Shown: positions 161 to 60,677 of the stretch, piece by piece
How positions within the stretch are numbered: the first letter of the stretch is position 1
How the letters are laid out: every line of letters starts with the position of its first letter
Source: Emiliania huxleyi CCMP1516
Lineage: Eukaryota
Length of the DNA: 64,000 nt
Direction: 5' to 3'
NCBI RefSeq assembly: GCF_000372725.1
Contig: NW_005201298.1
Coordinates: 311,393 to 375,392 of the forward strand
Notes under the pieces: model-generated
The model's input: the letters and a program-made list of their open reading frames with translations, nothing else
What the model was told of the DNA's origin: nothing
Databases searched by the model: none
Position numbers and translations under genes: made by a program

Positions 161-1271
161 GGCTGGCCGCCCACGAGCCCTCTGCGCGCACCTGAGTCGT
201 CGCCACGCGGCCGAGATGGCGGGCGAGGGCTGCGGCGGCGGGTGCGGCGGCGCCTCCGCGCTGCTCGGAGGCCCAGGGCGGCCCCCCTCCCCTCCCGTCC
301 GAGAGAGGGGCCTCGGCCGCCGCGGCGAGAGCGCTGCGGAGAGCCTCGAGCGTCTGCGCGGCGCCGGCAGAGAGCTCCCCGCTGGCAGGGTGGAACGCGG
401 GCGCCGCTGCCAGCTCCGGCACGCCGCTCACGTCGACCAGCGCGGCGTTTGCTTGCGGCGGCAGCCCGCCCGCCGTCGGGCCGCGGGGAGTGTAGTACTT
501 TCCGACCCCCATGCCCGTGTTTCCACAGTGCAGCAGCGCGGCCGGCTCGCGCCGCAGCAGCTCGACCTAATTAGCCAACAAGCTTCCTCTGAAGTGACTG
601 GTTGAGGTAGGCGGAGAGCTCGCGCCGCAGCAGCTCGACCAGACCCTCGAGCGAGGCTGGCCGCGAGTAGCTCAGCCCGCTGCCTGAGGGAAGTGTCTCG
701 GAAGTGTCTCGGAGGTGTCTCGGAGGCTGGCCGCGAGTAGCTCAGCCCCGCTGCCCTCGTCTTCATACCGCAGAGAGACGGGCGCCCGCGCGCGCGCCGC
801 GACCGCCGCCGTCGGCGAGACCAGCCGCAGCGCCCTGTCGCACTCGCGCCTCGCCGCCGCCCTCCGGCCCGCCTCGCCGTTTGAGAGAGAGGACGCCTGC
901 AGCGCCGCGTCGCACCTTCGGACCGGACGGCGTGGCTGTGGCCCTTCCGAGACACCTCCGAGACACCTCCGAGAAGGTTCGCACCGGCGGCCGCACGGCT
1001 TGCCCGTGGCGACGTCGTGGCACGGCGCGCACGTCTCGAGGTCGGTGATGCAGGAAGAGTCGTCGTGGGCAAAGGCGCGCTTGAATGCCTGCAGTACGAG
1101 GGAGTGACTGCCGTCACGGTGTGTGACGTGCTGTCAAGGCGTTCTCGCGGTCCTCGAGGGTGAGGGTGAGGGTGAGGGTTAAGTTAGGGTGACGGTTAGG
1201 TTAGGGTGAGGGTGAGGGGTGAGGGGTGAGGGGTGAGGGGTGAGGGGTGAGGGTGAGGGTGAGGGTGAGGG

Positions 1272-1304
<33 letters not shown>

Positions 1305-6302: not shown

Positions 6303-8511
6303 TTAGCACAAGCCCTCGTCGGCACTCTGCGTGCCACCATTGGGCGCTGCCGCCGCATCGCCGAGCGCGACCTCTTGCAGCACTGGCGTCAGCATCCCGA
6401 TCGCCTCGTGAACCAGCGTCAGCGCCGCCCCCGCGTCCAAGTGCACCGCCGTGCAGAGAGCGCGGCGCGCCCGCTTGAACGCGGCCGCGTCGGATGCCGC
6501 GGAGCAGCTGCGCGCCGCCTCCGCCCCGAGCGACGCCGCAGAGACTCGGTTGACGGCGTCAGCGAAGTGGGCGGCGGCCGCGCAGACGGAGGTGGCGAGC
6601 CAATCCGCCTGCTCCGCCCGCGACAGAAACGGCCAGTCGGCGCCGCGCAGCATCGCCTCCGCCGGCGCGTCCTCCCCGAGACCGAGCGGCGTCTGCGTGG
6701 GCGCGCGTTGGCACGCGAGCCCGAACCTAGGAGTGTGAGAATTCATTGGATGGAGGAGGACGGCGTCATTCAGAGCTCGCCCGCGCAAACCCGAGCCTCC
6801 GAAGCACCACGAGCGCGCACGTGGCGAGCTGCCCGAAGCATCGCGCGGAGTAGGCGTGCACCCGTGCCACACCCTCCTCCTCCGTCCAGCTCTGCTCCTC
6901 CCCCTCCAAGCCGCCCTCGGCCGCACCTACTAGACGCCAGGCCGCCCCTCGGCGTCGCGCCGCCTACCCACACGCGCGCCGCCACCCCCGCGCCGCCTCC
7001 CCGACCGACCGCATCCTCTAGCTCTGCGACCGGCGGCGCGAGCGCTGCTGCGAGAGCGTCCTTCAGCCGTGTCGGCGGCGGCGCGCCGCCCCGACTCGGC
7101 GGCGGCGGCGGCGCGTTGGCGGCGGCCGGCGACGCCTCCGATTCGAGCGCCACGGCGATGGCGTCGAGCGCGGCCTCGATGCGCGGCGTCGAGGCGGCGG
7201 GCAGGCGTGCGAGCTGGAGCTGCACCTATAGTGAGGAGCTGATTCGTTGAGGAAGGAGGACTGACTGGCGCCCGAGTCTCGTGGATCAGCGAGCGGGAGC
7301 TGCACCCGCAGCAAGGCTCCGTCCCTTAGCCCCTCTAGCGCGCCGAGCGAGGCAGAGCCGCCCAGCCTGTCGAGCCAAGCCTACGCGCGCCACAAGCCGA
7401 CACCTCACACTCTCCCTTTCCGCCACCGGCCGCAGACGACCGCCGGCCGCAGCGCCTCGAACGGCGCCAGCTCGGGCGGCGGCGGCGGGCCGGACTCCTC
7501 CTCCGCCGCCGCGCCCTCCTCCCCCCCCTCCTCGCCACCGCCACCGCCCGCCGCGAGCGGCCGAGCGAGCGCAAGCGTGGAAGTTCCGACGTCGGCGACG
7601 GCGCCTGTACGGAAGGTTCCGAGAAGGTTCAGTGGAGGCGCAGCACCTGCACCATCGCACCCGCCTCGGCGACAGCGCGCCGGCCGTCTCGCGAACGTCG
7701 GTGGCGAGCTGGAGGAAGCCGCTCGCCGACTCCTAGGAAGTGTCCAGGAAGTGTCTAGGGAGTGTCTGGGAAGTGTCGAGGACACCGCTCGCCGACTCCT
7801 TTGCGAGCGAGCTGATTGTACCGGTGACGGCGCCGCCCCGCTCCACCAGCTGGCCGCCCCCCTCCTTTAGCCCCTCCTTGAGCCCGCGCGTCATTCCTCG
7901 CGCCAGCCCGTCGCCGACCACCTAGACAATACCCTTCAACCTGAGACACGCACACGCAACACTTCCCCGACGCGTGAGCGTCAAAGCAGCGGCAGTGGCC
8001 GACGGCGCCGTCGCCTCCGTCGGCGCGGCTCCGAAGTCAGACGCCGACGTTGCGGCTGTATCTCGGCTATCTCTCGGCTATCTCGCGGCTATCTCGCGGC
8101 TATATCGCGGCTATGTCTCGGCTGTATCGCGGTTGTGTCTCGCCAATATCGCGGCAACGTCTCGGCTGTTTCTCGCCTCGGTCGCCGCAGCGCCGAAATC
8201 GGACGCAACCATCGCGCTCACGGCGCTCGCGACGCTCACCGCGCCCCCCGCAAGGCCGCGCACGTTCCGGAGCGGCGAGCCGAGCTCCGCCGCCGCCGTG
8301 TCGCTCTCGCCGGCGGCAAGGCCGTGCGTCGGCTCCGTGTCGGCGCTGGCGAGCCGCGAAGAAGCGTCGACGACGCCCTTCCCCACTGCGCCGGCGGTCG
8401 CACCGACGGCTCCGACCGCCCCGCTCGACACGTCGGCCGCGAGCGCGGCGAGGCCGACGGCAGACTCGAGCGCGATCCTGTTCCTTTGCCCAGTCCAGGT
8501 GAGTGTGCTGC
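6303..8511 (-). CDS. Hypothetical Ala-rich multi-exon protein; 5' end lost in the gap
   Basis: Chained coding-like minus-strand exons separated by repeat-filled introns (7733-7798, ~8056-8176); no family recognised. Confidence 0.45.
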
Positions 8512-18543: not shown

Positions 18544-20438
<1,895 letters not shown>

Positions 20439-20671: not shown

Positions 20672-21665
20672 TCAAGAACACAGGCCCAGCTCCGCCAGAC
20701 GCGCCTCCACCCGGTTCACCAGCGGCAGCAGCGCCCCGCCCGCGTCCAATCCGAGCGTGGTTGCCGCCTCTCGGCTCGTCGCGACCAAGTTCTGGCCCGG
20801 CGCTAGGGCGAGCGCCTCGCGAATGCGCGCGACTCGGACGGGCAGAATGGGCTTGCCCGGCGCGGGCGCGGGCGCGGGCGCGGCGCACCTCGCAGCCACC
20901 GGCGGCGGCGGCGGCGGCGGCGGTAGCGGCGGCGGCGGCGGCGGGGCCTGCGTGACCTGCGCGGCCGGCTCAGGGACCGGCGGTTGCTGCTCTCCTCCTG
21001 ACGCGAACTGCGGCACAACTCGTCGCTGCGCGCCCCTACAGACACGCCGGACACGCCTCGCCCGACTCTCGCGCCTCGAGCAGCGCCGCCGCCCGCGCTT
21101 TCGCCTCGTCGCCGGCGCGGCCCTGCTCCTCGTCGCCGCCGCGAGCTCTCCTTCCCGCCTCAACCGCCGCCTCGCCGCCTCGACCGCCCTCGCTGGCCGA
21201 GCGGCAGCCTCCCTCGCCCTGTCCGCCGCCGCTGCAGCGGCCGCCGCCCGCGCCTCCCGCTCGAGCGCCTCCGCCACCTGCGAGAAGGCTCGCAGAGAGA
21301 TCTCCGAGATCGTTGCGTGACGAGGCCTCCCGCTCTAGCCGCAGCCTCCACCTCGGCCCTCTCTCGCTCCGCCTCTCGCGCCCTCGCCGCCTCCGAGGCA
21401 GCCCGCCGACGCGCCGCCTCCCGCGCCTCGGCCTCCTCCTNNNNNNNNNNNNNNNNNNNNNNNNNNNNNNNNNNNNNNNNNNNNNNNNNNNNNNNNNNNN
21501 NNNNNNNNNNNNNNNNNNNNNNNNNNNNNNNNNNNNNNNNCCTCGGTGTCCAAGCCCGCAGCCGGCAAGCTGGCCCCCGCTGAGAGCTCCGCTGCCGAAG
21601 CCCCCGCTGCCGAGGCCCCCGCTGCCGAGGCCGTCGCGGCCGAGGCCCCCGCGGCAGCAGCCGCG

Positions 21666-21700
<35 letters not shown>

Positions 21701-22689
21701 GCTACTGCCTCCCGCCGGCTGCTTGCCTCTCTTGTTGCGGCCTTTGGCCGGTCGTGGCGGAGGCACGGCTCGCCCCTCCTCCTAACTTATTACGTAATCA
21801 ATTAGTTAATTAGTTAATTAAGGCGGAGGCACGGCTCGCCCCTCCTCCTCGGCGATCAGCTCCTCGGCCAGCTGCTGCCGCCTCGCCTCCGCCTCGCGCC
21901 TTTTCGCCTGTGCCTAAGCGAGCGAAAACAAAAGCCGAAGCTGTGGGCACGCATCTTTCCTGGCCCCCGAGGCCGGCCGGCTGGTGCACAGGGGCGCTAA
22001 GGCTGGGCAAGGGGCGCAGTGCGCACCTCTTTGTCTAAGTTGTCCAGCATCGGACGTATGCCCTCAACCATGGACTGAACTCGCTCGTTGGCGATGCGCC
22101 CATCGGGTCCGATCAGCATGGAGAAGGCGGCAGCGAGCGGGGCTAACACCTCCGCCTCCTTTTCCCGGCGCGCCCGAATCTTGTCGCGCGCTCGCCTCAG
22201 CGCAGTGCCGGCGAGAGGGTCGTCGTGGCTGAGTTCCTCGGGAGGGACATGCAACGAGTTGCTGCAGCCTTCGAAGCCCATTCGAATGCAATAGCCCTCA
22301 TCGTCGCCCTTGAAGTCCGCGAGGACGTAATCATTATCGGGTCCGAGCACTCTTCCTCTGCAACCGTGCTGCAACTCGTCGCCACATGGAAAAACCTCGG
22401 TGTCGCCGGTGTAGTAGAGTGTCTCTCCCACTGTGAAGCGCCCGGCCAGTAAGACCGGAGGAGGCGCGCGGCACAGCTCGGACAAGGGCCAATCGTCATC
22501 ATGGCCAAAGCGCACGATCCTTGAGTGACCATCGAAGAGCACGTCGTAACATTCGCCCTCGGGGTCGCAGTGCACAACGCCTCGCTGGCCGTACTCGAGC
22601 ATCATCGTACTCGAGCGGAGTCCGACGTAGTACACGGTCTCGCCGCGACGAAAGCGCGCCACCGCCTGCGACACCTGCGAAAGCGGCAT
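20672..22689 (-). CDS. Hypothetical multi-exon protein with a duplicated F..GET.YY.G domain and coiled coil; spans the 100-N gap
   Basis: RFRRGETVYYVG and RFTVGETLYYTG; exons join in frame across introns near 21915-22020, 21782-21847 and 21278-21352. Confidence 0.55.
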
Positions 22690-45353: not shown

Positions 45354-45572
45354 TTCAACGATGCCGCACATGCACAATGAACAACCACAAAGAGACGCAA
45401 ACGGCGGAGACCGCGGAGAGCGCCGCACACCCCCCGGGCACGACGCGGCGACGCGCTGCGCAAGCTGATACTGGGACCTGTGTGTACCAAAGTGAGTGCC
45501 ATGACGGAAGTCCGAGCGTGTCCAAGACGTCGGGGAGAGACTGGGGCAGGACTGACAGGCCCGTGAAGCCGC

Positions 45573-48500
45573 TCACGCCAAGCAGAGCTTCTCGATCCCG
45601 CCGGTGGTCGGCTCGGCATGTCGCCTCGCCTGCTGCATGGCTCGTAGGAAAGGCGCGGTGCCGCCGCCGTCGATTTCGAGCGAGTCGCGGAGCAGCGAAG
45701 GCCCTCTCCCCAAGGGGCCCGCGGCCTAGGGCTCCCTGCCGGCGGCGCCACCCCGGGCTCCGAGGAGAGAGGGCGGCGGCACGTGCGCGCGCAGGAGGGC
45801 GTCGGCGGGGGCGATTGCTTCGGCGGCGAGCGACTCGAGCTCGCTCCGCTGGTCGGAGGCGAGGTGGGAGAGCAGGGCGGAGTGGCGCGCCCCCGGCTCG
45901 CTGCTCGCCGCGAGGAGCGAGTCGAGCAGCGAGAGGACCGCCGAGTTTGCGAGCGAGTCGCGCACGCCGCCCCCTCCGCCGCGGTCCGCAGCGACGAGGC
46001 AGACGAGCCGCCCGACCAGCGGAGCGACGCCTAACACGCCGACCTCACGTGACCCTTCCTGGAACCGTCTCCGGCCCGCCCTGGCGGAGGAGCGGGCCGC
46101 CGTCGGCGTGGGCCGCCTCCGCAGCCTCGGCGAGCAGCACGCGCACGAAGCGAGCGACCGAGCAGCGCAGCACGCGGCCCGGCTGCTCGAGCAGACCGCT
46201 CAGCGACCGCCACAGCTGCGGCGAGGTGGCGACGAAGAGGCCTCGCTCGCCGTGCGCGCCGAGGAGGGACGCGAGCAGCTCGAGGAGGACCTAACACCCT
46301 CGGGTCATCTCGGGTGATCTCGAGTGATCTCGGAGCGGGGGGGGAGCAGCTCGAGGAGGACCGGCGCCGCCGCCGCGGCGGGGAGAGGCGAGTGCGGCAG
46401 CTGCGCGGCCTCGGGGGCTGGGCCGGCACGAGCGAGGTGGCCGAGGTGGAGGATCAGGGAGGAGACGCAGCCGCCGGGCGCGTACGCCGCGGCGAGGAAG
46501 GGCGCCTGTGTGGCCAGTGCTGACTCAGTCAGCAACGGCTTTGGTGGCGCGCCTGCGGGGCGAGCCCTCGCACCTCGGCCTCCTCCATCGAGGAGGGGTC
46601 GAGGAGGGCGCCGAGCAGCTCTGCGGGCAGAGACAAGGGCGAGCTCAAGGGCGTGGGCAAAGGGTGGGTGGGTGGGTGGGTGGGTGGGGGGGAGGGGGGG
46701 GGGGGGGGCGCACCTGCGGCCTGGCGCGCCACGCCCTCGTCGGCGGTGTCGCACAGGCGAGCAGCGAGCAGCTGGGAGGTGGAGGCCGCAGCGGCGGGAG
46801 GTGGAGGGGCCGCGGTGCCGCCGGACGCGTCGGGGAGGTGCGACGCGTCGGCCTGCGATGCTGCGGCTGCCTGCTCGGGGGCGGGTGGCAGCCCAGCCTC
46901 CGGCGGCCCCGCCTTCAGCTGCGCGACCTCGTCGCTCCGGAGGAGGGACGGGTCGTGGCTGCAGACCGCCGACAAGACGTCGCAGCAGCGCACATGCGCG
47001 CCGGCGGGGGCGGATGCCGCGCCGAGCGTGGATCGTGCGGCGGCGAGGAGGCCGAGCGAGGTGAGGCGGCGGTAGACGCGGGCCCGCTCGATCGGGTGGA
47101 GCCTACGGCGGCAAGGGGGGCTCGGCCCGTGCGGTCGGAGAGAGGCGAAGGCGCGTCGCAAGTCGAATCGCACCCGGAGGCGAGCGCAGTCAGCTCGCGG
47201 ACCAAGGACCTGCGGCCGAGGGGAGGCGAGAGGATGGGGAGAGGAGAGCGGTGCCGGCTCGCGCAGCAGGGGGCCAGAGCAGCGCCTCCTGTACCACGGC
47301 TACCTCTCGGCTACCTCTCGGCTACCTCTCGGCTACCTCTCGGCTACCTCTCGGCTACATCTCGGCTACATCTCGGGACCAGAGCTGGAGCAGCGCCGCG
47401 CCGTCGCCGCCGCGCGCGTGGTGGCGGAGGCTGGAGAGGAGGGCGGAGAGGAAGGGCTCGTCCTAACCTCGGGCAATCTCGGCTAACCTCCGTGTCCGGC
47501 CTCGGGGGCAGGGCGGGGAGAGGACGCGGCTCGTCCTGCTGCAGCTTTGCCACGACTGCATGGGCGTTGCCCTGCGCGGCTGCGCTCACTACGTCGGCGA
47601 CGCCTGCGCGGGGAGGGGGTCGCGGCGTCCGCCACTGCGGGCGAGGGGCGAGGGCAGCGGCGGGGCAGGCGCGGCGCCGTGCTCTGCGAGTCTGGGCAGG
47701 AGCGGCAGGACCTGCGAGGAGGGGCGGGGCGGGTGGCGGTGTGGCGTCGCTCGCTCTGTGGCGACGCGAGGCGGCGGGGCACCGAGTCTTGCAGCAGCTG
47801 CATCCGGCGCAGGGCCTGCACGAGCGCGAGCCCCTCCTCGTCCTCCCACGCCAGCGGGCAGGGCGGCCAGGCGGGCGAGGCGAGGCGGGCGCGGAAGGCG
47901 GTGTTCGCGGCGTCTGTCTCCACGTGTAGCAGCGCGCGCGTTTCGTGCTCCAGCGCGCCAAAGACAAAGGACGCGCCGTCGTCCTTCATGAGCCGCCGCA
48001 GCGCAGGCGCCTGTTTGCAGCCCGCAGCCGTGAGGCGACGCCGCCGGCAGCTGCGCCACGAGCCGCCGCGGGCGCGCGTCTGCGAGCGCGAGGAGAAGGG
48101 AGGCCACGCGGCCGAAGGCGGCGGGCGGTTCGCCGCTGGACGCCTCCGCGGCGGCGAAGGCGGAGGCGATCGAGGCGATGTAGTCGTCCGCCTCGCCGCC
48201 CGCCGACTCGGCCACGATGCCCAGAGCGGAGAGCAGCGAGCCGCCGGGCGGCTCCTCGGGGGGCGAGTAGTTGTCCGAGTAGAGCAGCGAGCCGAGGAGC
48301 CGCTCGAGCTCGCAGAGCCCGCCCTCGCTTGCGGGGTCGGGCAGCGGCGCGGGAACCGCGGCGCCGCTGGCCGAGCCCGCCGCCGTCGTCACCACCCCAG
48401 CCGCCGCCTGCAGCATCACGATGTCCTCCCACACGCCAGAGGCCTCTTCGGCGGTGTCGAAGTGCATCGCCCACTCGTCGCCGTCGATCGGGAGCGCGTG

Positions 48501-48746: not shown

Positions 48747-49131
48747 CCGGCCGGAAGCGCGCTGGCTTGTGGAAGCAGGCCGGACTGCGACCAGAGGAAA
48801 CGCCCGGGCGTGGGAGAAAAAGAATTCGGTAAGCCTCTCACACGCATGGGGGTTTTTCTTTTTCTCTACCCCACAGTTCTGGGGTAGAGCCGTGGCGTCG
48901 AGCGCCCGCGGCCACTCCTTAACTTATACACGGCCACTCCTTTCTCAAGCTCTGGCTCTGGCGACGGCCGCATCGTACCGAGGCCACACCCTTGTCTCCG
49001 AACCGTCGGCGAACTTTCGCCCGCCGAGAACCGCCGCGCTTCGTTCAATAACGATGAAACGAAGCGCCATAATCAACACAAAATAAGCGTCGGGCGGGAG
49101 CACCGACAGCCCGCGGGGCGAGATCTGTTTT

Positions 49132-50358
49132 ATGTTCGTCGTCGCTACGCTCTCGGCCTCGCGCCAGGGCCACGCGTCGAGCCACGCGCGGCGGCCCGCG
49201 GAGCTGCTCTCTCTCGTGCGCAGCCCGCTCCCCGAGTACCACATCGAGGAGCACTACCTCCCCGCGCAGCACGATTGGCGCGACGTGGGTGGCAAGAGCT
49301 ACGTGACCGCCGATGTGAACCAGCACATACCCGAGTACTGCGGCTCGTGCTGGGTCCACGGGACGGTGGCCGCGCTCAACGACCGCGTCAAGGTGATGCG
49401 GGGCGGCGCCTTCCCCGACGTGATGCTCTCACGCCAGGCGCTGATCAACTGCATCCCCGACGACTCTCGCAACAAGTCCAAGCCGCCGCCCGGCTGCAAC
49501 GGGGGCGACGCGTGGATGGTGCACTCATACCTCACCAACAGCACGGTGGGCGACGAGACGTGCCAGCCGTACGAGGCGCGCAACGGCGTGTGCAACCTCG
49601 CGGGGGTGTGCCGCAACTGCGCGTCCGACAAGAAGGAGGGCTGCTGGGGAGTGCCTTCCTTCACCGGGTTCGGCGTGTCCGAGTACGGCACGGTGTCGGG
49701 CGAGAAGGCCATGATGAAGGAGATCCTCGCCCGTGGGCCCATCGTCTGCGGCGTCGTCTCCGACGGCCCCTTCCTCCACAACTACAGCCAGAATGCGGGC
49801 AAGCACGAGGGCGTCTACATTGACCGGTCGAAGCACACGCCCGACGACATCGACCACGACGTGTCGGTCACCGGCTGGGGCGTCACCCGCAGCGGCGTCA
49901 AGTACTGGATCATCCGCAACTCCTGGGGCACGTACTGGGGCGAGGGCGGCTGGTTCCGCCTCGAGCGCGGCATCAACTCGCTGATGATTGAGGAGCAGTG
50001 CGACTGGGCGGTCCCGAGCTTTGGCCAGCTCGAGGAGCGCCTCGACGGCCCTCGGGGCCTGCTGGGCGACTACAATGACGGGCTGCGCGCGACGAGCATG
50101 GACGCGTCGCAGCGGCCGACCCGCACCTGGCCGATTGGCTGGGCCGGCCTCAGCCTCCTGCAGAGCGAGCAGCCGTCGCTCTTCCAAGCGCCGCCCGCCG
50201 CGCCCGCCACCTCGAGGGTGCAGCTCCTCGCCGCCGGCGCCGCGGGCTTCGCGGTGGCCGTGGCCGCGATGCTCGCGGCGGGCGGCCACAAGTTCTGGGT
50301 GGTTCGGCGCCCGGTCAAGGAGGAGGAGGCGCTCACCACTCCGTATGCCGCGCATTGA
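49132..50358 (+). CDS. CTSZ: Cathepsin Z/X-like papain-family cysteine peptidase with C-terminal hydrophobic anchor
   Basis: NQHIPEYCGSCW; EILARGPIVC; DHDVSVTGWG; YWIIRNSWGTYWGE. Confidence 0.93.
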   Translation: MFVVATLSASRQGHASSHARRPAELLSLVRSPLPEYHIEEHYLPAQHDWRDVGGKSYVTADVNQHIPEYCGSCWVHGTVAALNDRVKVMRGGAFPDVMLSRQALINCIPDDSRNKSKPPPGCNGGDAWMVHSYLTNSTVGDETCQPYEARNGVCNLAGVCRNCASDKKEGCWGVPSFTGFGVSEYGTVSGEKAMMKEILARGPIVCGVVSDGPFLHNYSQNAGKHEGVYIDRSKHTPDDIDHDVSVTGWGVTRSGVKYWIIRNSWGTYWGEGGWFRLERGINSLMIEEQCDWAVPSFGQLEERLDGPRGLLGDYNDGLRATSMDASQRPTRTWPIGWAGLSLLQSEQPSLFQAPPAAPATSRVQLLAAGAAGFAVAVAAMLAAGGHKFWVVRRPVKEEEALTTPYAAH

Positions 50359-50780
50359 TCGCAACGCGCGCTTCCACCGGCGCTTCTTTTCTCGACCGGA
50401 GGGACACACGGCCGGGTGACACGCAACTACTCGATCGCGGATTGACCCCGGCAGCGCGGGCCAGGAGCCACGCGCGCACCCATGCAGGGGGGTGCGGGGT
50501 CTCTCTCACTCTCTCATCCAGAGCGCGACCGTCGCGCGCGTGCGGGCGCGGCACCAGCTGCACCAGCGACGCACTCCGCCGTATTGTTTTACGTATCGAG
50601 AAAAGAATTTTACCACCGAAAGTGGTCGCACAGGCACGAAAAAAAGCTCTTAAAAAGAAAAAAACCAGCTGAAGTTCGATCGCCAATCGCGGCCACCATC
50701 CTCGGTGCCACCGCTGCTTCTGCTGCCCGCGATCGTCCTGGTTTCTATCGCGTCCGTCAACTTCTTTTGACTCGCCTCTG

Positions 50781-53149
50781 ATGGCGACTCCGGCCGCCGC
50801 CAGCGACTGGATTCGCTACTGGGACGAGGCGTCCAGCGACTACTACTACCACCGGCCGGCGACGGGAGAGACGAGCTGGGAGCAGCCCGACCGCTGGATT
50901 TGCGGCGAGGGCTACGATTCGTCGGAGGACTCGGCACGCCGCTCCCGGGCCGGCAGCTCGCTCCCACTGGAGGACGAGGACGATGTCGACGCGCCCGAGG
51001 AGGACCTCTTTGTTGTCCGCGCCTCGCTCAGCGGGCCGCCGCCTCTTCCTGCCGGCGGGCCGCCGCCCCTCTCATTGGGTGCTCCGCCGCCGCTTCCTGT
51101 GGCGGCGGCAGAGCCCTCCTCGGCGCAGCGAGAGGAGCGACGCCGCAGGGTCCTGGGCGAGATCCTGTCGACGGAGCGGACGTATGTGGCCGCGCTCCAG
51201 ACGCTCGAGAAGGTTTACATGGTCCCGATGCGTATGGTCGCCGACGCGGGAGCGAAGGTTGCCATCTTTTCGCACGCGGACCTGGACACGGTCTTCCTTA
51301 ATCTGGACGTCCTCCTGAAGCTGCACGCCCGCTTTCTTGAGCGGCTCGAGCAGGAGGAGGCGAGCGGCCACTTTGGCGCGATCCTCTCGGGCGCGGCCAA
51401 GGACATCAAGGGCTGCTACACGAGGTACATCTCCAACTACGCGCAGGCGGAGGCGCACATCTCCGCGCTCGCGAGCAAGGCGCCCGACAAGCACCGCTAC
51501 CTCGAGGTGTGCAAGTCGCACCCCGACGCGGGAGGGCTCGACGTGCGCTCCTTCCTCATCCAGCCCATCCAGCGCGTGCCGCGCTACCGGTGAGCCCCTC
51601 CCCAGATGGAGCTCTGTCGACCTGCGCGGCCTCGCGCCACCCCGCTCCGCCGCGGCGGCGCCCCCCTCCCCGCAGGCTGCTGCTCGAGGAGCTGCTTGCG
51701 CACACCGAGCCGGGCCACCCGGACGAGGCGGACTTGCGGGAGGCGCTCGCCCGCATCCGCGAGGTGCCGCCTTCGCACGCCGACAAGGAGATGCGGCGAG
51801 CCACACCCCATCAAGCCTCCGTTCTGAACCCCGCCGCGCAGGTGGCCGCCTTCATCAACGAGGAGACGCGCGTGTCGGCCACGCTCTGCAAGCTGCGCGA
51901 GATCGCGCGGCGCTTCGCGCAGCCGGAGGCTCGGGAAGACGCGACCAGGGGGGGGGGGGGGCGCGCTCCTGCAGCACACGCGCGCCCTGACACGTCCGGA
52001 CGGCTGCGCCGCTCAGGTGCTCGAGAAGAGCCTCGTGCGGCAGGGGCGCGCCTTCGTGCGCGAGGGCGAGCTCACCAAGGTGAGGCTCGCGCACCGGCAG
52101 CGGCGCAAGGCCGTCCTCTCCTCCGCGTCCCGTGCTCGTCTCCCTCTGCGGCACGCGTCGGGGGGACGTGTCTTGGACGTGTCCTCTCTAGGTCTTCCTC
52201 TTCTCCGACCTGCTCGTGTACGGCGTGCCCACCGGGCGCGGCTACGTCCAAAAGGGCCAGATCCCCCTCGGCGAGGGGACGCGGGTGAGAGAGAGAGAGT
52301 CGCCGCGCACGCAGCACCCGGCGCACAGACACGTCCCAGACGTGCCGCCCCCCATCTCGCCCCCCCATCGCACGTCCCGTAGGTCGAGCGGCTGCCGCGC
52401 ACGGAGCACCTGACGCACGGGTTCGCCGTCGTCGACGGGCACGGCAAGGGGTACACGTGGCACGGCGAGTCGGAGGCCGAGACGGGGGAGTGGTTCGAGG
52501 AGGTGCGGCGGGCGGGGCGGGGCACGTCCACGACAACATGCACACCCGTCGACATGCACTTTGTCCATGTCCCACAGGTGCAGCGGGCGGTGCGCGCCTG
52601 CCAGCCGGAGCGGCGACCGAGCTCCTTCGACGCGGTCGCGGCCCTGTGTCGCGCCGGCTGTGGCCAACGCCACCGAGCGCCGAGTGCCCCGGTGCCCGCC
52701 CGTAGGTTGCGATCCTTGCGATGGTGGCGCGGAAGACGGCGCTCGAGCACTTCACGGCGGCCAAGGCGGGCTGCACGCTGATCAAGTTCAACCACCGCGA
52801 CGGCCGGTCGAGCCCCCGGTGGGTGCGGATCTCTGCGGACGGCAGCGCCATCTGCTGGGGCGACACCAAGTCCAAGGAGTGCAAGTCGATGATGGCGCTC
52901 TCCAAGGCGGTCGCGCTGATGCACGGCGCCAAGAGCGCGGCCTTCTACCGCGCGCAGGGCGCCAAGAAGGACCGGGACTGGCTCTGCTTTTCGCTCCTCT
53001 TCCGTGGGCGCACGCTCGACTTCGCGGCGACCACCGCCGAGGGGCTCTTCACCTGGTACCTCGCGCTGGCGGCGCTGGTCGGGCCGCGCTCGAGTGAGCC
53101 GATCCTCGACGAGGAGGCGCTGCGCGCGCGCGTCGCGGAGATGATCTAG
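50781..53149 (+). CDS. WW plus RhoGEF (DH) plus PH plus second PH-like domain protein, about 8 exons
   Basis: W..YYYHRPATGETSWEQP; EILSTERTYV; FLIQPIQRVPRY; VREGELTK..VFLFSD; PRWVRISADG..CFSL. Confidence 0.9.
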
Positions 53150-53690
53150 GCGCGGCCGTGTGTGGGAGCTCCCTTGGGAGGACTGGCACAGGCGTCAGGC
53201 GGTCTTAGGGAGAGGGGAGCGCGGGGGCGGGCAGAAGGGGGCGGGGGGGGGGGGGGGGCTGCGCGAAGTGCTATCAGGCCGTAGATGTGCGCCAGGGACG
53301 TGCGTAAGAGATAGCCCTAGAGATACGTGAGCCGTACGAGGTATGTGTGGCTACGGCGCAGGCCCGCCGCGGCTTCGTCTGGGGCTGCGCGGAGCTGTGC
53401 GGCCTCTTCGGAGAGTTTTCATTTTCTTTTTCGTTTTGATTTTGTCGTGTGTCATCTCCATGTCCATGTATGTACAACAATAACATCTCATGTCCTGCAC
53501 AAACAGTAGTCAGCACCTCGTGCGGCCCACACGTATAAACTCTCGTAATCCACCCCGCGCTCCGCCGCGGCTGCCGGAGAGCTGGAGGTCGCCACCCCCT
53601 CACTGTCACATCCTGTCACTTCTTCGCGCACCGGACCGCCCACCCCTAGGCCCACCCTCGCCCTCCCCGCATCGCCACACACTCAACACG

Positions 53691-54584
53691 CTAGTCTGCG
53701 CCCCAGCCCTCTCCCGGCCCGACCCGCCGGTTGATCGAGAAGTATCCCTGCTGCGTGCGCACCACTCTGATGGAGGCGCAGTTGCCGAAGCCGGCAAGCT
53801 CGTCCATGCTGTGCGGGAGCGAGGCCGATGTGAGGCCGAGTGGGGCCGAGTGAGGGAGGCTGGGTGGCGGCGGGGGTGGTGTTGGGGGCGTGCGGCCGAG
53901 AGGCCCGCAAGGGCTGTGGCGGGGAGTGAGGGCGAGGGACGTCAGCGAGGCCTGCCTGCAGAGAAGGTCGAGGGACTCGTCGGCCGCAGAGTCGCCCTCT
54001 GCGAGGGGCGGCCCCTCAGGCCCCTCGCAATAGAGCACTTCGAAAGAGCCGAAGGGCGGCTCGAGCGGCCCGAGCAACTGCAGCGGAGGCGCACTCTCGA
54101 GCGACACGCCCAGCGCCTGCCTCGGCAGCAGCCGCACGCCCCGGATCTTGAGGTCGACGGTCGCTGGCTTGCCCTCGCGGCGAGCAAAGGAGGTGACCAC
54201 GCGCTGCTGCAGCCGGTCGCCCTTGAGGTTGGAGAAGAGCGAGGTCGCCCACTCACGCGGCTCGTACTCGATCACATTCTCGATCGTGCCCTCTCTTTCG
54301 CTGATCCGCTGCCCGATCCGCGAGCACCGCACGAAAGGCCCCGCCTGCGCATCGAGGCCGAGGATATCGGGCGCGTCGGTGTACACCAGCTCCCAGTCGC
54401 CGCCAATGTCGGGGACGGCCTGCTGCGCCGGCGCGGCCTTTGCCAGCACGTCTATCGCCGCCGCCACCGCTTTTCGGTCCGCAGGCTTTGCAGAGAAGCC
54501 GCGGTCGAGCGGCGCGATTGCGTTTAGCAGCGCGGCTCTGGGAGTCGCGACAGCAACGGCGGCGAGCACGACGGAGAGCGCCAT
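53691..54584 (-). CDS. PAP/fibrillin family plastid lipid-associated protein
   Basis: Signal peptide; LLNAIAPLDRG; IGGDWELVYT; GSFEVLY; RVVRTQQG. Confidence 0.85.
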   Translation of the reverse strand: MALSVVLAAVAVATPRAALLNAIAPLDRGFSAKPADRKAVAAAIDVLAKAAPAQQAVPDIGGDWELVYTDAPDILGLDAQAGPFVRCSRIGQRISEREGTIENVIEYEPREWATSLFSNLKGDRLQQRVVTSFARREGKPATVDLKIRGVRLLPRQALGVSLESAPPLQLLGPLEPPFGSFEVLYCEGPEGPPLAEGDSAADESLDLLCRQASLTSLALTPRHSPCGPLGRTPPTPPPPPPSLPHSAPLGLTSASLPHSMDELAGFGNCASIRVVRTQQGYFSINRRVGPGEGWGAD

Positions 54585-54649
54585 GTCGGGGGTTCCCTCG
54601 CGGTAAATTTCCGCTTCAAGAATTCTGCTTCAAGAATAAAGAATTTTCG

Positions 54650-56570
54650 GATGAGCTCCATCGCACACGCACGATGAACTACAGGTAGTGGGGAAGGCAG
54701 CCTCGATTGCCATACAGACATGGGTGCGAAACAACGACAAGACCAAGGCACGGGCAGAGGAACGAGAGAAGAATATAGGGTGGATAAAGCGCCTGTTCAC
54801 GGCATGGAGGGTGAGCCACACCGAACGTACCGAGCGAAGGGCCGAGCGGAAGGAGGACGGGGAAGATGACTCAGAGGAGGACGAACCAGTGGAAATTCAG
54901 TCGTCAGATGTCACGATGCATCCGAAGGGGACCCCAGCGCCAGCATCATCCGTAGAGGCACGAGTGTTCGAAGAGAGAGTGGACCTGAGCAACAACATGA
55001 CGTGTAGGCAAATGATCGGAGTGGGAGTCAGAAATGTGGTCCTTGCGCGAGGGGAGCTTGATAGACTCGAGGGGCCAGGATACGCCGCGAGGAGGACGGA
55101 GTTGCGCAAGGCGAAAGAAGCCGCGAGAACAAGGGACCGGCAGGCGGCGGCGTCGCAGGACGAGGCAGAAGAGAACGACGCGACAGAGGAGGAAGTGACA
55201 AGGGAGAGACCGACGAGAGTGGGACGGCCGCGAGGTGGCATGAAGGTTGCAGCGAGAAGCGGCGAGAGACTGCGAAAAGAGATACGAAGAGGCAGACCCC
55301 CCAGGGTGGGCGACGGCTAGCGCACCACACCCTCCTCTCCTTAAAATCCCTGTGTGGTGGCGGCGTGCCGTTCTCCCAACCTGGTTTGTGGAGCTCCCAC
55401 ACATTACCTAGAGAGCACGGCATTCGGGGCCATGATCTCGGTTCCGCACTGGACTTTTTTTGTAGTGGAGAGAATTCAGGAATCTTTCTGCTCTGGCAGG
55501 CAGCTGCATCATCCCCCTTTACTTCAATCAGCTGTGTACACTCAAGTGCTAGTACTGTCTGAATAGCTGTCTAGACGCTCCGATTTTGCTGTCTGGACGC
55601 TGTCTGGACACTGTCTGGACGCTGTCTGGACGCTGTCTGGACGCTGTCTGGACATGGAAGATCGCGTGAGGTGTGAATAGACCTGCAGACAGGAATCATA
55701 CTCTGATACTCAACAACACGTCAGCCAAATGTGAGCGAAGATTCGCTGCCACTGTTGCTGCTGTTGCTTGGGCGGCGAGAAGCGCCGTGTTTGCGGCGTC
55801 TGTCGCGGAGGAGGGAGGGCGGTCCGGCGGCGATGGGAAAGGACGGCGTGGCGGCGGCGCAAGCGCGTTCGGTCGCGCGCGCCCCGAGGCCGCCGTCGTG
55901 GGTGCAGCGTGCGTGCCTGACTGAACTGCTGGGCTCGCGCTTTGCCCAATGCGCAGCGGCGGGTCGGCGTGGCTACTGCCGGCCCGCAGCTTCTTCATCG
56001 GCGGCGCGGGGCTCGCGGCTGCAGCATGGAACCCGACCAATGCGTGCCCACGCTTGCTCTGCCCTTTCCGCAGCATCGTTGCGACGTCGGCGTTGCCTTC
56101 CACAGTTGCCGCCACCGTTGCTGCTCTGACTCTTCGCGGGCACTTTTGGGGGAACCCTTCTGTGAAGAGGGCCTGTCTAGACAGCTGTCTAGACAGCTGT
56201 CAAGACAAAACTACAAGTTCAAACTTCAAGTTCTCAAGTTCTCTTAGTTCTGCTGTCTAGACGCACCCCCCCCCCCCAATGGCAAGTAAAGAAAGCGGCA
56301 TGTGGGTGGGTGGGTGGGTGGGTGGGGAGTGGCCTCGGCAGCGCCAGGGGTGCTGTCAGGGGTCGTCCAGCCACGACTACGAGACTTTACTGTGAATAGT
56401 GGAGCCATGTGCCACTGTCTGGACGCTGTCTGGACGCTGTCTGGACGCTGTCTGGACGCTGTCTGGACACTGTCTGGACAGGCTCAGGGCTGTCTAGACA
56501 TGTGTGGGAGCTCCACAAACCAGGTTTCCCATCCCTCCCTTGGGTTGTGTGTTTTCTTTCTTTCTTTCTG
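54650..56570 (+). mobile_element. 5'-truncated retroelement (ORF remnant 54688-55320) with family D tail, split by a DNA transposon
   Basis: Body matches 5827-5940; tail GCCGTTCTCCC|ATCCCTCCCTTGGG is rejoined after removing the insert. Confidence 0.65.
55378..56526. mobile_element. Non-autonomous TIR element with 4-bp TSD
   Basis: TIR AACCTGGTTTGTGGAGCTCCCACACA; TSD TCCC at 55374-55377 and 56527-56530; internal CTGTCTGGACG 11-mer arrays. Confidence 0.88.
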
Positions 56571-58014
56571 CACGATTCACACAAAAACACAAGGAAACCA
56601 AGACGCACAAGCTCAGACAGTCGAGAAAGGACGATTCACACAACAGGCAAAGCGCGGACGACGGCTTCTAATAATAGAAGCCGTCGTCCTCACAGATGGA
56701 TCGAGAGAGATCGGGTGAATGAGGAAGCGACGCGACTGATGCACAGCCTACGACCTAGTGTGGCGCGAAGGGGAGGAGAGGCGCGGCGGGGCCAGCGGCG
56801 AGTCCGGGTCCTGCTCCCCTCCCACCTCGTGGGAAGCAAGGGCTAGGTCCCCCCCCCGGAGGGTGGTAGACGATCGGCGCGTGGAGCAGCGGCTAGAACG
56901 GCCGCAGGTCATGGGGCCGCCCCCGAGGCTCCACACCAGGTGTTGCGGCCGCCAGTACCGCCACCGTACCCGCCCCCTCCGCCACCGCCTCCACCCCCGC
57001 CGCCGGCGTGGCCGCCACCGCCCGGACCCACACGAACCTTCATGGGGAACCCGGAGCCGCCCCCGTCGGAGGCTGGGCTACCCGAGGGAGGGGACCGAGG
57101 GAGGGGAGGTGCCGCGAGACGACAGCGGGTCTGTCGGCGAACCGGAAGGCCAAGACCGGAGGGCCCCGAGTGCGACCTGGAGTCAACTGTCGGAGGGGGT
57201 GAGAGTCGAGCTGGCTCGGCCAGTCGGCCTCTGCGCACTACGAGTGGAGAGTCGGGACATACGAGCTCACCGGGGGTATAGACCCGTCGCGGCGGCAGCC
57301 GGACCATCGTGAACCACGGCAAGGGGGCCACGCCTCCCCGAGATCGATGAGGAGTCGGCGGAAGGGGGGGGGCGAGCCGAGTACGATATTAATAGAGAGG
57401 CCGCGGGTGCGAGCGCGATTCGTCGACCAGGGACGGCAGGGAGCGATGACCCGTCCTCCCGGGGAGGGGCGGCGACACGACCCAACGCCGCCGCCCTCGC
57501 CCGGGGAGTTGGGCACGGGATCGCCATCGGCAGGGTCAACGGAATCAGGCAGAGAGGACGAGACGGCGACGGGGCCGCGGCCGAAGAAGTATAAGAGGGG
57601 AAGGCGGGCTCCGCAGCCGCTGCCCAACCAGCGGAAAGCGAGCCGGGAGGAGGACCGGGAGGAGAGGGGAGCCCCTCCGAATCGAGGGTGGGGAGGCCGA
57701 ACGGAGGGGCCCTGAGGGGGAAGCCGGTGGCGGCGATTGCGTCGAGGGAGCAGAGGCCGGTGACGGCGAGGCGACTGCCCGACTGACGAAGCGGGCGCCG
57801 CGGCCGGCGGTGCGGCAGAGGGCTGCAGCGGCATCGACGGCGAAGCAGCGTGCTGCGTCGACAGCGTGGCGCGCCGCGGCGACAGAGTTGGGGCCAGCGC
57901 AGCCGAGGCGAGCGCGGCCTGGACTGGCGGCGAGCGCGAGAGCACCGACGACGGCGACGGCAGCGCCCGTGATCGCGGCTCCGTGGGCGGCGAGGGCGAG
58001 CAGGAGCAGGCTCA

Positions 58015-58162
58015 CTCGGGATGTGAGGCAGCCCAGCTGAGTGTCTTGTGAGTTTGTGTGTCTGTGTGTCGCTCGCGCGTGTCGTCGTCTTCTGTCCCGC
58101 GTCCACCCATTCAGAACGCGTTGGTGTCCAGTCCGAGCTAGACTGTTCTTCACCTTTCTACC
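58015..58162 (+). mobile_element. Family B retroelement 3' end; may extend upstream to ~56700
   Basis: Matches 30619-30753 and 17440-17584. Confidence 0.75.
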
Positions 58163-58581
58163 TCACACGGACCACGGAGTGCTCCAGGCTCTGTCGCAGT
58201 CAAGATGTCATCGTCTGTATATCGGCCGGGTTCAGTCACGAGTGTAGAGGATGCAGAGTGGAGAGCACTCCGTGTGAGCTGTGAGCTGGTGTAGAGAGAG
58301 AGAGATGTGTTGAGCGCTGCAAGAGCTGTTGGTGGTGTTAGGTAGAGCATGCTGTAGGATGGACCTGACCACAGGGGGTGAAGTCTGTCTCGACTCTCGT
58401 CGTTGAAAATGCCGTGCGTGTTGGTCGGTTCTCCCTTCAGCCCCCCCATCCGCCCGACCCGGGCAGCGGCTAGAGCCGTACTGACCGGTAGGGGGCCCGG
58501 GTGTGGGAAACGCCCCGCGCCGCTAGATTAGATCCTAGTACACACCGTACCGCACCACTGCTTCACTGTCTCACCGTCTGA

Positions 58582-60677
58582 CTACTGTCTCAGGGTGCCC
58601 ACGCAGCACGCAGAGAGCATGTCCTCGTTCACCCAAGCGTGGTGCTGTTGGAAGAGGGCTGTGGCGTCCGTGCCGGCCGCGTCGAGAAGCGCGTCCACAC
58701 CTCCCGGGTGGTACCGGAGGTAGGGCGAGACGTTGTACACCTTGCCGCGAACCGCCATCCACGAGTCCTCGGGCGTGGTGTGCGAGGCCACGTCGGCGAG
58801 TGACCACTTCGGCCACGCCTCCTCCTCCTCCTCGTCGAGCGGCCCGACTCCGCCGGTGAGGTCCGCGCCCCTGCTCAGCCGCAGCCACGCGGCCAGGCCG
58901 AAGCCGGGCTCGAGCACAACTTTGCCGCGAGCCTAATTAGTAGTTGATTAGTAGTGAATTAGTAGTGACTTAGTAGTGAATTAGTAGGGCTCGAACACAA
59001 CTTTGCCGCGAGCCTTCTCGAGCCGCCCAAGGCGCGGCGCTGCTTCTCCCAGCCTCGCCAGCTGCACAGCCTCGCACGCGATCCCTCCCGACGCGCACGC
59101 CGTCTGCCGCACGACCCGCCACGCGCCGGGCGGGTAGCGGCGCGACGCCTTGACCACCGCGGCGGCGACGCCTAACGTCGATGTTCACTAACGACTCCTT
59201 GATGGCTCATTCCCAACACCTCGACGGCCGCACCGCGGCCGACGCCTCCCGGCCCCGCGTTGCCGACGAGCAGGCAGCGGCCGCCGGGCCGGACGAGCAC
59301 CGCGAGGGCGGAGAGGAGGGCGCCGACGTCGAGCCGGGCGTGCAGCATCCTACTCATGCCATCTCGTGTGGTGGGTGGTGCTGCACCCCTCCCTGGGCGT
59401 CGAGCCGGGCGGTGCAGCGTCCCGGACGGCAGGCCGGCTACGCATCTCAGGAAGTGTCTAGGAAGTGTCTAGGAAGTGTCTAGGAGCTGTCCCGAACGGC
59501 AGGTCTAGGAAGTGTCTAGGAAGTGTCTAGGAGCTGTCCCGAACGGCAGGTCGGCGAGCACGCAGTCCACGCTCGCGCGAGGGAGGCCCACCTCTCCCCC
59601 CAGCCGCGCCTACTCCTCCGAGCGGCGCGTCACCGCGCGAGGGGCCGTGGAGACGGCACTCATTTCCCCCCCGCCCCGCGCCGCGTCGCCGCAGTGCACC
59701 GTCACCCTCCCGCGCAGGCGCGGCGCGGCGGCGGCGGCGTTTGCGCGCGCGGCGTCGCACGCCGCAGGGTCGAGGTCGACAGAGTGGGCGGTGACGGAGG
59801 CGAGGAGCGCCGCCTCGATGGCGAGGATGCCTGCGCGCGGCGCGAGGGCTGTGGAGAGAGAGTGAAGAGAGCTGTGGGGAGAGAGAGAGTGCGCAGGGGC
59901 GCGTGCCGACGCCGCCCGTCGGGTCGAGGAGAACCTCGCCGTCCGCCTACCGGGAGACGGCTCCGGGGAAGCGTCCGAGGGGGCGAGTCGAGGCGAGCAG
60001 GGCAGCACCTCGCCGCTCGCCGGCGCGAGGAGGCGGGCGAGCAGCGCGGCCCTGTGCGGCCGCATGTGCGCCCGCTCTCCGCGCACGAGCCACTGCCTCG
60101 GCTCCATCGGCAGCGGGTCTGACTTGCGGGGCGAAAAGGGAGGCAGCAGCGCGCCAATCAGGAGCGAGCGGTTGACGAGCAGCGCGAGGACGCACACGTC
60201 GGGGGCCTCGAGGTCGACCCGCCACGAGGGCTGCAGCGCGCTGACGGCTGCGCCGAGCGCGCTGCTCAGCGCGCGGCTGTCAAAGTCGTGCTGGCCGGCG
60301 CGGAGCGAAGCGATGCGGAAGGAGGGCGCGGAGGGGGGGAGAGGAGCGGCGTGCGCGGCGTGCGTGCGCATCGCCGACCGCCAGCGCTCCTCGCTCACGC
60401 TCCCAACGGCAGCGGCGAGAACGTCGCCATCCTCCACCTCGCACCGCACCACGACGGCGAGGGCCGCCTGCAGCACCGGCGCCGAGAGGGCGCGCGCAGC
60501 GAGCGGCTCTTGCCGGGACGCGACGAGGATGCCGAGGCCACCCGCCGAGCCAAACGACTCGCCCTTTCGGGCGGTCGGGGCGGGCAGCGCGCTGGCCCGC
60601 AGCCCGCACTCGCTCGCGAGGGCGTCGAGGGCGACAGACTCGAGGCCTGCCGTCGTGAGGAGGGCGTAGTCGTGCAT
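58582..60677 (-). CDS. THUMP-domain RNA methyltransferase (THUMPD2/3-like) fused in frame to a cytochrome b5-like heme domain
   Basis: SFRIASLRAGQHDFDS..LGAAV..WRVDLEAPD; DLD..AARANA; VLADLPFG; then WMAVRGKVYNVSPYLRYHPGG..AGTDAT. Confidence 0.75.

What the first reader, a model, noticed from the sequence alone, without database searches (positions are those of the whole stretch)
58906..59013. Introns built from a copy of the next exon's start plus filler: candidate intron-creation mechanism
Seen: the 81-nt GC-AG intron 58933-59013 (-) begins with a 27-nt copy (1 mismatch) of the downstream exon start, followed by five 11-mers ending in AG. The same design occurs at 567-639 (22 nt exact), 684-754 (~31 nt), 7733-7798 (14 nt), 21782-21847 (26 nt) and 46291-46361 (18 nt). 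Degenerate versions occur at 20120-20185, 59172-59245, 51764-51841, 52110-52191 and 52503-52577. All are 66-82 nt, and removing them restores conserved motifs where the family is known (e.g. VNGFGGLLVAVVIKY, YSRPASLEGLVELL). Known: intron gain by tandem duplication and TSD-using introners are described, but introners share a family sequence and these fillers do not. Inference: staggered breaks or duplications at G|GY sites are padded with newly made DNA to a spliceable length. This could explain the many GC donors, and the exact-to-decayed gradient suggests an ongoing process.
Basis: partly seen in the sequence, partly recalled or inferred. Interest (0 to 1): 0.88.

Follow-up and report, generated by a model that had tools for sequence, protein, structure and literature searches.

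The report
Introns made of duplication plus filler
Many short introns of this marine alga consist of a roughly 25-base copy of the neighbouring gene sequence plus about 45 bases of repeat-rich filler, a design seen about 120 times in 290 kb of DNA and likely left by DNA-break repair, which would make it an ongoing, genome-wide way of creating introns.

Summary
Observation confirmed. 58933-59013(-) is an 81-nt GC-AG intron whose first 27 nt copy the next exon (1 mismatch). RNA contigs of two studies skip it and a DNA contig keeps it. All 11 named sites are present as described; splicing is shown directly for 2. In 225 kb of independent DNA plus the window there are 121 units (duplication 25±5 nt, filler 46±9, sum 71±7), against 0 in shuffled DNA. 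Two corrections: fillers do share repeat families, and the splice junction can lie at the start (46/121), middle or end of the duplication. Filler junctions carry about 2-nt microhomology (null 0.4-0.5), and several duplications include an older intron's 3' end, pointing to a genomic template. Donors are GC 27, GT 14, GA 8, close to the exon G|GN background. Best reading: staggered-break repair with microhomology-primed filler, kept when spliceable (0.6). An intron-free allele, the proof of gain, was not found. Species is Emiliania-like by traits only. The scan noted single duplication-born introns in other genomes, not this genome-scale pattern.

The parts
58933..59013 (-). Focal 81-nt GC-AG intron
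   Evidence: skipped in RNA contigs of two studies, present in a DNA contig
58987..59013 (-). 27-nt copy of the next exon's start (1 mismatch); supplies the inferred GC donor
58933..58986 (-). Filler: about five AT-rich 11-mers ending in a branch-point-like motif and TAG
58906..58932 (-). Exon start matching the copy (last exon, cytochrome b5 domain downstream)
58582..60677 (-). Host gene: THUMP domain, predicted methyltransferase-like middle, cytochrome b5; 517 aa open after removing 7 introns
   Evidence: middle part named by recalled resemblance only
59172..59245 (-). 74-nt GC-AG intron with a decayed copy (p=0.06)
59350..59421 (-).
59446..59538 (-). Inferred 93-nt GA-AG intron of family 11-mers; holds a 47-nt tandem duplication spanning its donor; no copy of the next exon
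59610..59681 (-). 72-nt GC-AG intron, decayed copy (p=0.026), RNA-supported
59831..59906 (-). 76-nt GC-AG intron without a detectable copy, RNA-supported (counter-example)
59947..60020 (-). 74-nt GC-AG intron, decayed copy (p=0.002), RNA-supported
567..639 (-). 73-nt GT-AG unit, 22-nt exact copy, unique filler
684..754 (-). 71-nt GC-AG unit, about 30-nt copy with one indel, family 11-mer filler
7226..7305 (-). 80-nt GT-AG unit, 17-nt copy (new here)
7605..7678 (-). 74-nt GC-AG unit, decayed copy (new here)
7733..7798 (-). 66-nt GA-AG unit, 14-nt exact copy, family 11-mer filler
20120..20185 (+). 66-nt GT-AG unit with a decayed copy, in a nucleotide-sugar transporter gene
21278..21351 (-). 74-nt GT-AG unit, decayed copy (new here)
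21782..21847 (-). 66-nt GA-AG unit, 26-nt exact copy, AT-rich filler
46291..46361 (-). 71-nt GT-AG unit, 18-nt exact copy, 10-mer filler
51764..51841 (+). 78-nt GT-AG unit, weak copy (p=0.025), RhoGEF-like gene
52110..52191 (+). 82-nt GC-AG unit, decayed copy
52503..52577 (+). 75-nt GT-AG unit, decayed copy

Best explanation
These introns consist of a 16-42-nt copy of adjacent gene sequence plus about 45 nt of filler, and they likely arise when a staggered DNA break in a gene is repaired by fill-in and microhomology-primed synthesis, the insertion then likely being kept only if the spliceosome can remove it exactly. Shown: the unit's anatomy, abundance, length window, junction microhomology, both filler orientations, and removal from RNA at the focal gene. 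Inferred steps: (1) two nicks about 25 nt apart give overhangs whose fill-in duplicates the target; (2) a polymerase primes by about 2 nt of microhomology on a repeat-bearing template (the genome's 10-11-bp repeat pool, telomere repeats, microsatellites) or synthesises AT-rich DNA iteratively, then rejoins; (3) because removing one duplication-plus-filler length restores the mRNA, any register with G[TCA] at its start and YAG at its end works; most often the first copy gives the donor and the filler gives branch point and AG; (4) selection keeps totals of about 60-85 nt; (5) events that span an existing splice site lengthen an old intron instead; (6) the intronic copy then decays. Borrowing donors from GC-rich exon sequence would account for many GC and GA donors. 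The enzyme is not identified; polymerase-theta-type end joining is the closest known chemistry.
For: 121 units with spacing 55-100 nt in 289 kb, against 0 in 6-mer-shuffled DNA and 1 in 127 kb of prokaryote DNA. 61 of the 114 units outside the window lack the 11-mer used to harvest the loci. 96 of 147 11-mer arrays are flanked by a duplication (null 0.45%). Microhomology 2.2 nt at 27 left and 1.9 nt at 29 right junctions, against 0.44 and 0.50 (highest of 5000 shuffles 1.19 and 1.14). YAG-compatible register in 87 of 121 (null 31, max 47); left edge 46 (null 6.7); interior 47 (null 24). Duplication length is 24-28 nt in every register class, as one staggered event predicts. The 11-mer lies in both orientations (12 and 6 of 18 oriented). 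About six units duplicate 7-12 nt of what reads as an older intron's end (judged by eye), which a spliced template lacks. In an SMC3 gene (L036) the donor G lies one base outside the duplication and splicing would swap one base synonymously in the coding frame, as expected if the filler entered uninterrupted exon. 18 unique AT-rich fillers hold 52 internal 6-mer repeats against about 8. Staggered nicks give tandem duplications with microhomology and occasional inserts in mouse cells (PMC5730883, passages).
Against: No intron-free allele or paralog was found among the loci held, and DNA run X1 carries the focal introns, so gain is not shown. Known theta inserts come mostly from the break flanks, but unique fillers match their own flanks barely better than chance (7.3 vs 6.6 nt, null max 7.4). 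Only 21 of 121 units lack any near splice register, fewer than blind genome-wide insertion should leave in non-coding DNA, so an unexplained bias to gene bodies or junctions is needed; the non-coding share was not measured and repeats were masked. Repeated hits at one junction (L086, L115) also fit a junction-targeted process. 3 of 8 RNA- or frame-supported introns in 53.8-60.0 kb show no copy and a fourth is at p=0.06 (58). Loci were chosen by the 11-mer, so densities and family shares there are inflated.
Confidence: 0.6

Rival explanations
1. Target-primed reverse transcription by a non-LTR retrotransposon enzyme: a staggered cut gives the long variable duplication, and the filler is a severely 5'-truncated copy of a repeat-rich RNA (element tails or excised introns, whose 3' ends are YAG). 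These would still be new introns, but an element-driven and self-propagating kind.
For: Variable duplication length, microhomology at both junctions, both orientations, dispersed filler families including a roughly 40-nt family in several loci, and fillers ending exactly in YAG at the duplication edge in 46 of 121 (41). Non-LTR-derived introners exist (PMC12130899, passages).
Against: Fillers are very diverse (telomere repeat, microsatellites, unique AT-rich stretches; 24 of 41 non-periodic fillers have no match in the 289 kb held); no longer element-like insertions were seen among 143 units; antisense 11-mer fillers also end in TAG because of the CTAG palindrome.
Confidence: 0.17
2. The positions are old: breaks in existing short introns are repaired with the spliced message or its cDNA as a guide, so old introns are rebuilt with copies of the flanking exon rather than created.
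For: The repeat edge lies within 2 nt of the junction in 46 of 121 units; units are strongly biased to splice-compatible sites; events recur at existing junctions.
Against: Mid- and end-junction registers have the same total duplication length; several duplications include intronic bases; fillers are young, near-perfect arrays with no remnant of an older intron in left-edge units; one-base swap in SMC3.
Confidence: 0.15
3. Classical tandem genomic duplication of 60-85 nt creates the intron, and part of it is later replaced by invading repeats.
For: Some whole tandem duplications of 45-110 nt exist (20 rows; 47-nt case at 59456-59552); mechanism shown in vivo (PMC3443670, passages).
Against: 69 of 121 units have exact copies abutting unrelated filler at a sharp, microhomologous edge, which needs two near-simultaneous events; most whole duplications seen already contain filler.
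Confidence: 0.06
4. Artefact: mis-assembly, or reverse-transcriptase template switching between the direct repeats mimicking splicing.
For: A 20-nt exact repeat makes the RNA joint ambiguous and could favour template switching.
Against: An independent DNA contig holds the introns without gaps; other assemblies show the design; the unspliced sequence has stops in all frames and removal restores a 517-aa frame; introns with weak or no repeat are skipped in the same contigs.
Confidence: 0.02

Closest known systems
Intron gain by staggered double-strand-break repair in Daphnia pulex (PMC4202315, passages; PMC3443670, passages)
   Same: Direct repeat shared by intron end and adjacent exon; AT-rich insert of unclear source; de novo synthesis proposed.
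   Different: Daphnia repeats are 4-12 bp (33 cases among 90 new introns) and gains were shown by polymorphism. Here repeats are 16-42 nt, make up a third of the intron and supply the donor; fillers come from shared 10-11-bp families; density is about one exact unit per 10 kb of the window; polymorphism not shown.
Tandem genomic duplication model (Rogers; as described in PMC3443670)
   Same: Splice signals borrowed from duplicated exon sequence; precise gain without change of the protein.
   Different: Only part of the intron is duplicated sequence; in the commonest class the acceptor comes from the filler; donors are mostly GC and often GA.
Introners (10.1101/2022.06.06.494994, passages; PMC12130899, passages)
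   Same: Genome-scale intron creation; one splice site taken from the target duplication and the other carried by the insert.
   Different: The examples read have 4-8-bp duplications and a family sequence; here duplication length varies widely and inserts share repeat motifs but not ends or lengths. The 2022 survey removed low-complexity families by design, and neither main text names Emiliania.
Tandem duplications from paired nicks, polymerase-theta end joining (PMC5730883, passages)
   Same: Duplication of the overhang, junction microhomology, occasional inserts.
   Different: Inserts there are short and copied from the flanks; here they are 30-65 nt, nearly always present, and from dispersed families. 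No link to introns there.
Emiliania huxleyi non-canonical donors (PMC4028052, passages)
   Same: GC 56%, GT 40%, GA 4% of 241 curated junctions; 89% of 535 introns with retention reads; left-edge units here are GC 27, GT 14, GA 8.
   Different: That paper attributes GC donors to genome GC content; the passages read mention no exon copies in introns.

Membership tests
Spliceosomal intron | Removed from RNA, present in DNA, G[TCA]..AG ends | tested here: met
   for 58933-59013 and 59172-59245; the exact register within the repeat is inferred from consensus
DSB-repair intron gain (Daphnia type) | Direct repeat between intron end and adjacent exon | tested here: met
   longer than the 4-12 bp reported
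DSB-repair intron gain (Daphnia type) | Insert unrelated to the flanks and more AT-rich | tested here: met
   Filler GC 0.49 vs duplication 0.69; local match near chance
DSB-repair intron gain (Daphnia type) | Intron-free allele or ortholog at the same site | tested here: inconclusive
   One other DNA run carries the focal introns; no empty site among held loci (65-68), which hold few overlapping pairs
Tandem genomic duplication | Whole intron is a copy of flanking exon | tested here: not met
   Copy 25±5 of 71±7 nt
Tandem genomic duplication | Both splice sites from one duplicated AG|GY | tested here: inconclusive
   Fits interior registers (47 of 121 have one, null 24); not the 46 left-edge units; registers outside the focal gene lack RNA
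Introner | Copies share one family sequence end to end | tested here: not met
   Shared repeat motifs with variable phase and length; 24 of 41 non-periodic fillers unmatched; one roughly 40-nt family comes closest
Introner | Short target duplication of fixed length | tested here: not met
   16-42 nt, continuous
Introner | Terminal inverted repeats or an autonomous partner | not tested
   No genome held; no terminal-repeat search run
Polymerase-theta end joining scar | Microhomology at junctions | tested here: met
Polymerase-theta end joining scar | Insert templated from the break flanks | tested here: inconclusive
   7.3 vs 6.6 nt, null max 7.4, 18 fillers; family fillers are not flank-derived
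Polymerase-theta end joining scar | Dependence on the enzyme | not testable with these tools
   Needs genetics
Non-LTR retroposed insertion | Variable-length target duplication | tested here: met
Non-LTR retroposed insertion | 5'-truncated series sharing the 3' end of an RT-encoding element | not tested
   No genome held

The most novel reading that the evidence does not exclude
This lineage runs a self-feeding intron factory: a gene-targeted repair or reverse-transcription activity writes pieces of the existing intronic repeat pool between 25-nt target duplications, has built most short introns of the genome within the recent past, and by borrowing donors from exons produced the GC-majority splice code, the 10-11-bp intronic repeats and the heavy intron retention.
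Probability: 0.3. Interest if true: 0.95.

Novelty: new variant of a known kind. Interest (0 to 1): 0.82.

Why it matters
Where new introns come from is a long-standing question, and recent surveys credit transposons with most ongoing gain while filtering out low-complexity cases. Here a route without a family element leaves a dated scar (the decaying exon copy) in each intron, at a density that would mean thousands of young events per genome (extrapolated from 6 exact units in 63 kb). That makes rate, target choice and age of intron gain measurable with existing strain genomes. It would tie together three oddities reported or recalled for Emiliania: GC/GA donors, 10-11-bp intronic repeats and intron retention. 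It also matters for annotation: RNA junctions here are ambiguous over 15-30 nt.

Tried and rejected
No whole genome is held, so the genome-wide test used 116 of 123 harvested metagenome loci. Seven were dropped as redundant or satellite (L022, L030, L047, L068, L097, L120, L132). A first unfiltered scan was swamped by tandem repeats. The viral collection had no match to the 11-mer pattern; the prokaryote collection gave 9 loci used only as a control. Homolog search with the first exon found nothing. The cathepsin search and cluster look-up did not name the species. Overlapping locus pairs differ only by substitutions, small indels and repeat number; in-silico empty sites matched no other locus except one spurious 72% hit; the apparent L036/L039 paralogy is a shared 10-mer repeat. 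Palindromes and inverted 6-mers in AT-rich fillers are not clearly enriched (20 vs 14±3.5; 14 vs 9±3.6), so snap-back synthesis is not supported. Five one-base-swap cases were seen, but only SMC3 has an independently known frame; the rest are uninformative. The duplication/filler anticorrelation (rho -0.64; -0.59 in 69 exact units) may partly reflect boundary error and is not used as proof of padding. My early favourite, overwrite of old introns from spliced cDNA, was demoted. The 2013 genome paper is not held.

Full report
The observation. On the minus strand, 58933-59013 begins GC, ends TAG and is 81 nt long; 26 of its first 27 bases equal the first 27 of the next exon, and the rest is about five AT-rich 11-mers. 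The other ten named sites match their description. Against 1000 shuffles each, the six near-exact cases give p=0.001 and the degenerate ones 0.002-0.025, except 59172-59245 at 0.06. A blind scan of 3068 candidate acceptors in the window found 10 with a strong intron-start/exon-start match (one a shadow on the other strand) and 2 with the mirror match, both in one minisatellite. It added sites at 59350, 21278, 7226 and 7605.

Splicing. I laid four runs on 45000-60500. RNA contigs of two studies (X12, X11) skip exactly 81 nt and 74 nt at the two named introns, and a 777-nt DNA contig of X1 holds both without gaps. Four more introns were supported: 53809-53955, 59610-59681, 59831-59906 and 59947-60020. 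The host gene (THUMP domain plus cytochrome b5) reads open for 517 aa after removal of seven introns. Four of those seven carry a copy at p<0.05, one is at 0.06 and two have none; 53809-53955 has none. The other nine named sites are not individually RNA-confirmed. Because of the repeat, RNA cannot fix the register; the donors are inferred from consensus.

Organism. GC content near 65%, marine holders and GC/GT/GA donors fit Emiliania (Gephyrocapsa) huxleyi as described in PMC4028052 (passages). No call named the species, so this is a resemblance.

Beyond the window. No genome is held. A scan of metagenome contigs with the window's 11-mer returned 123 loci from 11 of 64 parts of the collection; 116 (225 kb) were kept. 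Forward matches with score >=18 numbered 87 and mirror matches 20 among 9904 candidate acceptors, opposite-strand shadows not removed. A strand-blind search for two-copy direct repeats of >=16 nt in these loci plus the window gave 143 units, 121 of them spaced 55-100 nt. A few are not true members (a coding repeat in L037, the window's 44191 minisatellite, two neighbouring family fillers in L098). Duplications measure 25±5 nt (16-42), fillers 46±9 and their sum 71±7, with mod-3 classes 39/43/39. Controls gave 0 units in 289 kb of 6-mer-shuffled DNA and 1 in 127 kb of prokaryote DNA; 61 of the 114 units outside the window lack the harvesting 11-mer. Of 147 11-mer arrays with full flanks, 96 are bracketed by a duplication (null 0.45%). 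One trehalose-phosphate-synthase-like gene (L086) holds 9 counted units in 4.1 kb and more decayed ones by eye. In the unselected window there are 6 exact or near-exact units in about 63 kb.

The general unit. A G[TCA]..YAG register exists in 87 of 121 units (null mean 31, max 47). It lies within 2 nt of the duplication's start in 46 (null 6.7) and inside it in 47 (null 24); duplication length is 24-28 nt whichever class. Thirteen more have a register just outside or across a mismatch, and 21 have none. Several mid-junction units follow intron-like DNA and copy 7-12 nt of what reads as an older intron's end together with the exon start (L019, L021, L029, L077, L113, L126; judged by eye). These point to a genomic template and to events that lengthen old introns.

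The filler. It is 49% GC against 69% for the duplications; 51 of 121 belong to the CCTAGACACTT family (inflated by the harvest), others to related 10-11-mers, a roughly 40-nt family, telomere repeats, microsatellites, or unique AT-rich sequence. The 11-mer lies in both orientations (12 and 6), each of which can end in TAG. Where a periodic filler runs to the junction, its phase continues into the duplicated target for 2.2 nt on the left (27 junctions) and 1.9 nt on the right, against 0.44 and 0.50 by chance: priming by microhomology at both ends. Eighteen unique AT-rich fillers hold 52 internal 6-mer repeats against about 8, suggesting iterative synthesis, but match their own flanks hardly better than chance. 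In SMC3 (L036) the predicted donor G lies one base outside the duplication, so splicing would replace one exon base by a filler base, synonymously in the coding frame. That is what insertion into uninterrupted exon followed by selection predicts; it is one case and has no RNA check.

Donors. Left-edge units use GC 27, GT 14 and GA 8; G|GC, G|GT and G|GA occur 229, 101 and 96 times in the duplicated segments. GC:GT is 1.9 against 2.3 in the background and 1.4-1.9 genome-wide in PMC4028052. Donors look borrowed from exon sequence.

Mechanism. Most likely (0.6) a staggered break in a gene is filled in, duplicating about 25 nt, and joined through microhomology-primed filler; products that can be spliced out at 60-85 nt survive. 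Retroposition by a non-LTR enzyme (0.17) explains the same anatomy and also means gain. Rebuilding of old introns at old positions (0.15) is not excluded, because no intron-free allele was found and the bias to splice-compatible sites and existing junctions is stronger than blind insertion easily gives. Whole duplication followed by repeat invasion (0.06) and artefact (0.02) fit poorly.

Prior knowledge. Break-repair gain is known from Daphnia with 4-12-bp repeats (PMC4202315, passages); tandem duplication and the other models are reviewed in PMC3443670 (first part and passages); introner surveys show 4-8-bp duplications in the examples read, filtered out low-complexity families, and do not name Emiliania in their main texts (supplements not read); a general survey reports 4-30-bp repeats near 213 introns (PMC11782384, abstract); the Diacronema genome paper leaves haptophyte intron gain open (PMC8379373, one passage). 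Ten literature searches listed no paper describing this pattern in haptophytes, judged from titles and abstract starts. The 2013 E. huxleyi genome paper, which I recall noting 10-11-bp intronic repeats, is not held, and it, its supplements or newer genome papers could mention the duplications. Earlier notes of this scan describe single duplication-born introns in other genomes, nothing in this genome.

Verdict. A real, spliced and widespread feature, a new variant of duplication/break-repair intron gain by its long duplications, family fillers and scale. Gain itself awaits strain or sister-species comparison.

Noticed in passing
window 59456-59552: 47-nt tandem duplication spanning an exon end, the donor and part of an 11-mer array, without new filler: an intron lengthened by plain local duplication.
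   Followed up: partly
window 19176-19397: Four to five head-to-tail copies of a GC-rich ~25-nt segment each followed by GGAGATATGG 10-mers: looks like a duplication-plus-filler unit amplified in tandem.
   Followed up: no
window 1156-1323: Telomere-like hexamer array inside the window; a telomere repeat also serves as filler in L033:1367-1410.
   Followed up: no
window 36637-36707 (-): Possible mirror-type unit: the end of an intron-like stretch resembles the upstream sequence (score 11).
   Followed up: no
window 36952-38745 (+): Long open frame with six RCC1 repeats (156-nt period), no units detected inside it.
   Followed up: partly
window 49087-50358 (+): Cathepsin X/papain-family gene that reads as one open frame of 408 aa, identical to a database protein: an apparently intron-free gene beside intron-dense ones.
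   Followed up: partly
window 54600-55400: Very high summed depth in DNA and RNA runs: a high-copy repeat or mobile element fragment.
   Followed up: no
window 43865-44973: Minisatellite of about 64-nt units present in both orientations; source of the two strong mirror hits.
   Followed up: partly
L086:1-3300 (-): PX domain plus trehalose-phosphate-synthase-like gene in which most introns show this design, some as stacked events at one junction; a good test locus.
   Followed up: partly
L036:680-842 (+): SMC3 gene with two adjacent units separated by a predicted 25-nt exon.
   Followed up: partly
L084:193-234, L086:3093-3131, L078:1358-1397: A roughly 40-nt filler family with internal direct repeats, the most introner-like of the fillers.
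   Followed up: partly
L047:1675-3380: Array of more than 1.5 kb of the 11-mer, a possible template reservoir for fillers.
   Followed up: no
L006: Prokaryote control locus with 37-nt repeats at 74-nt spacing, CRISPR-like.
   Followed up: no
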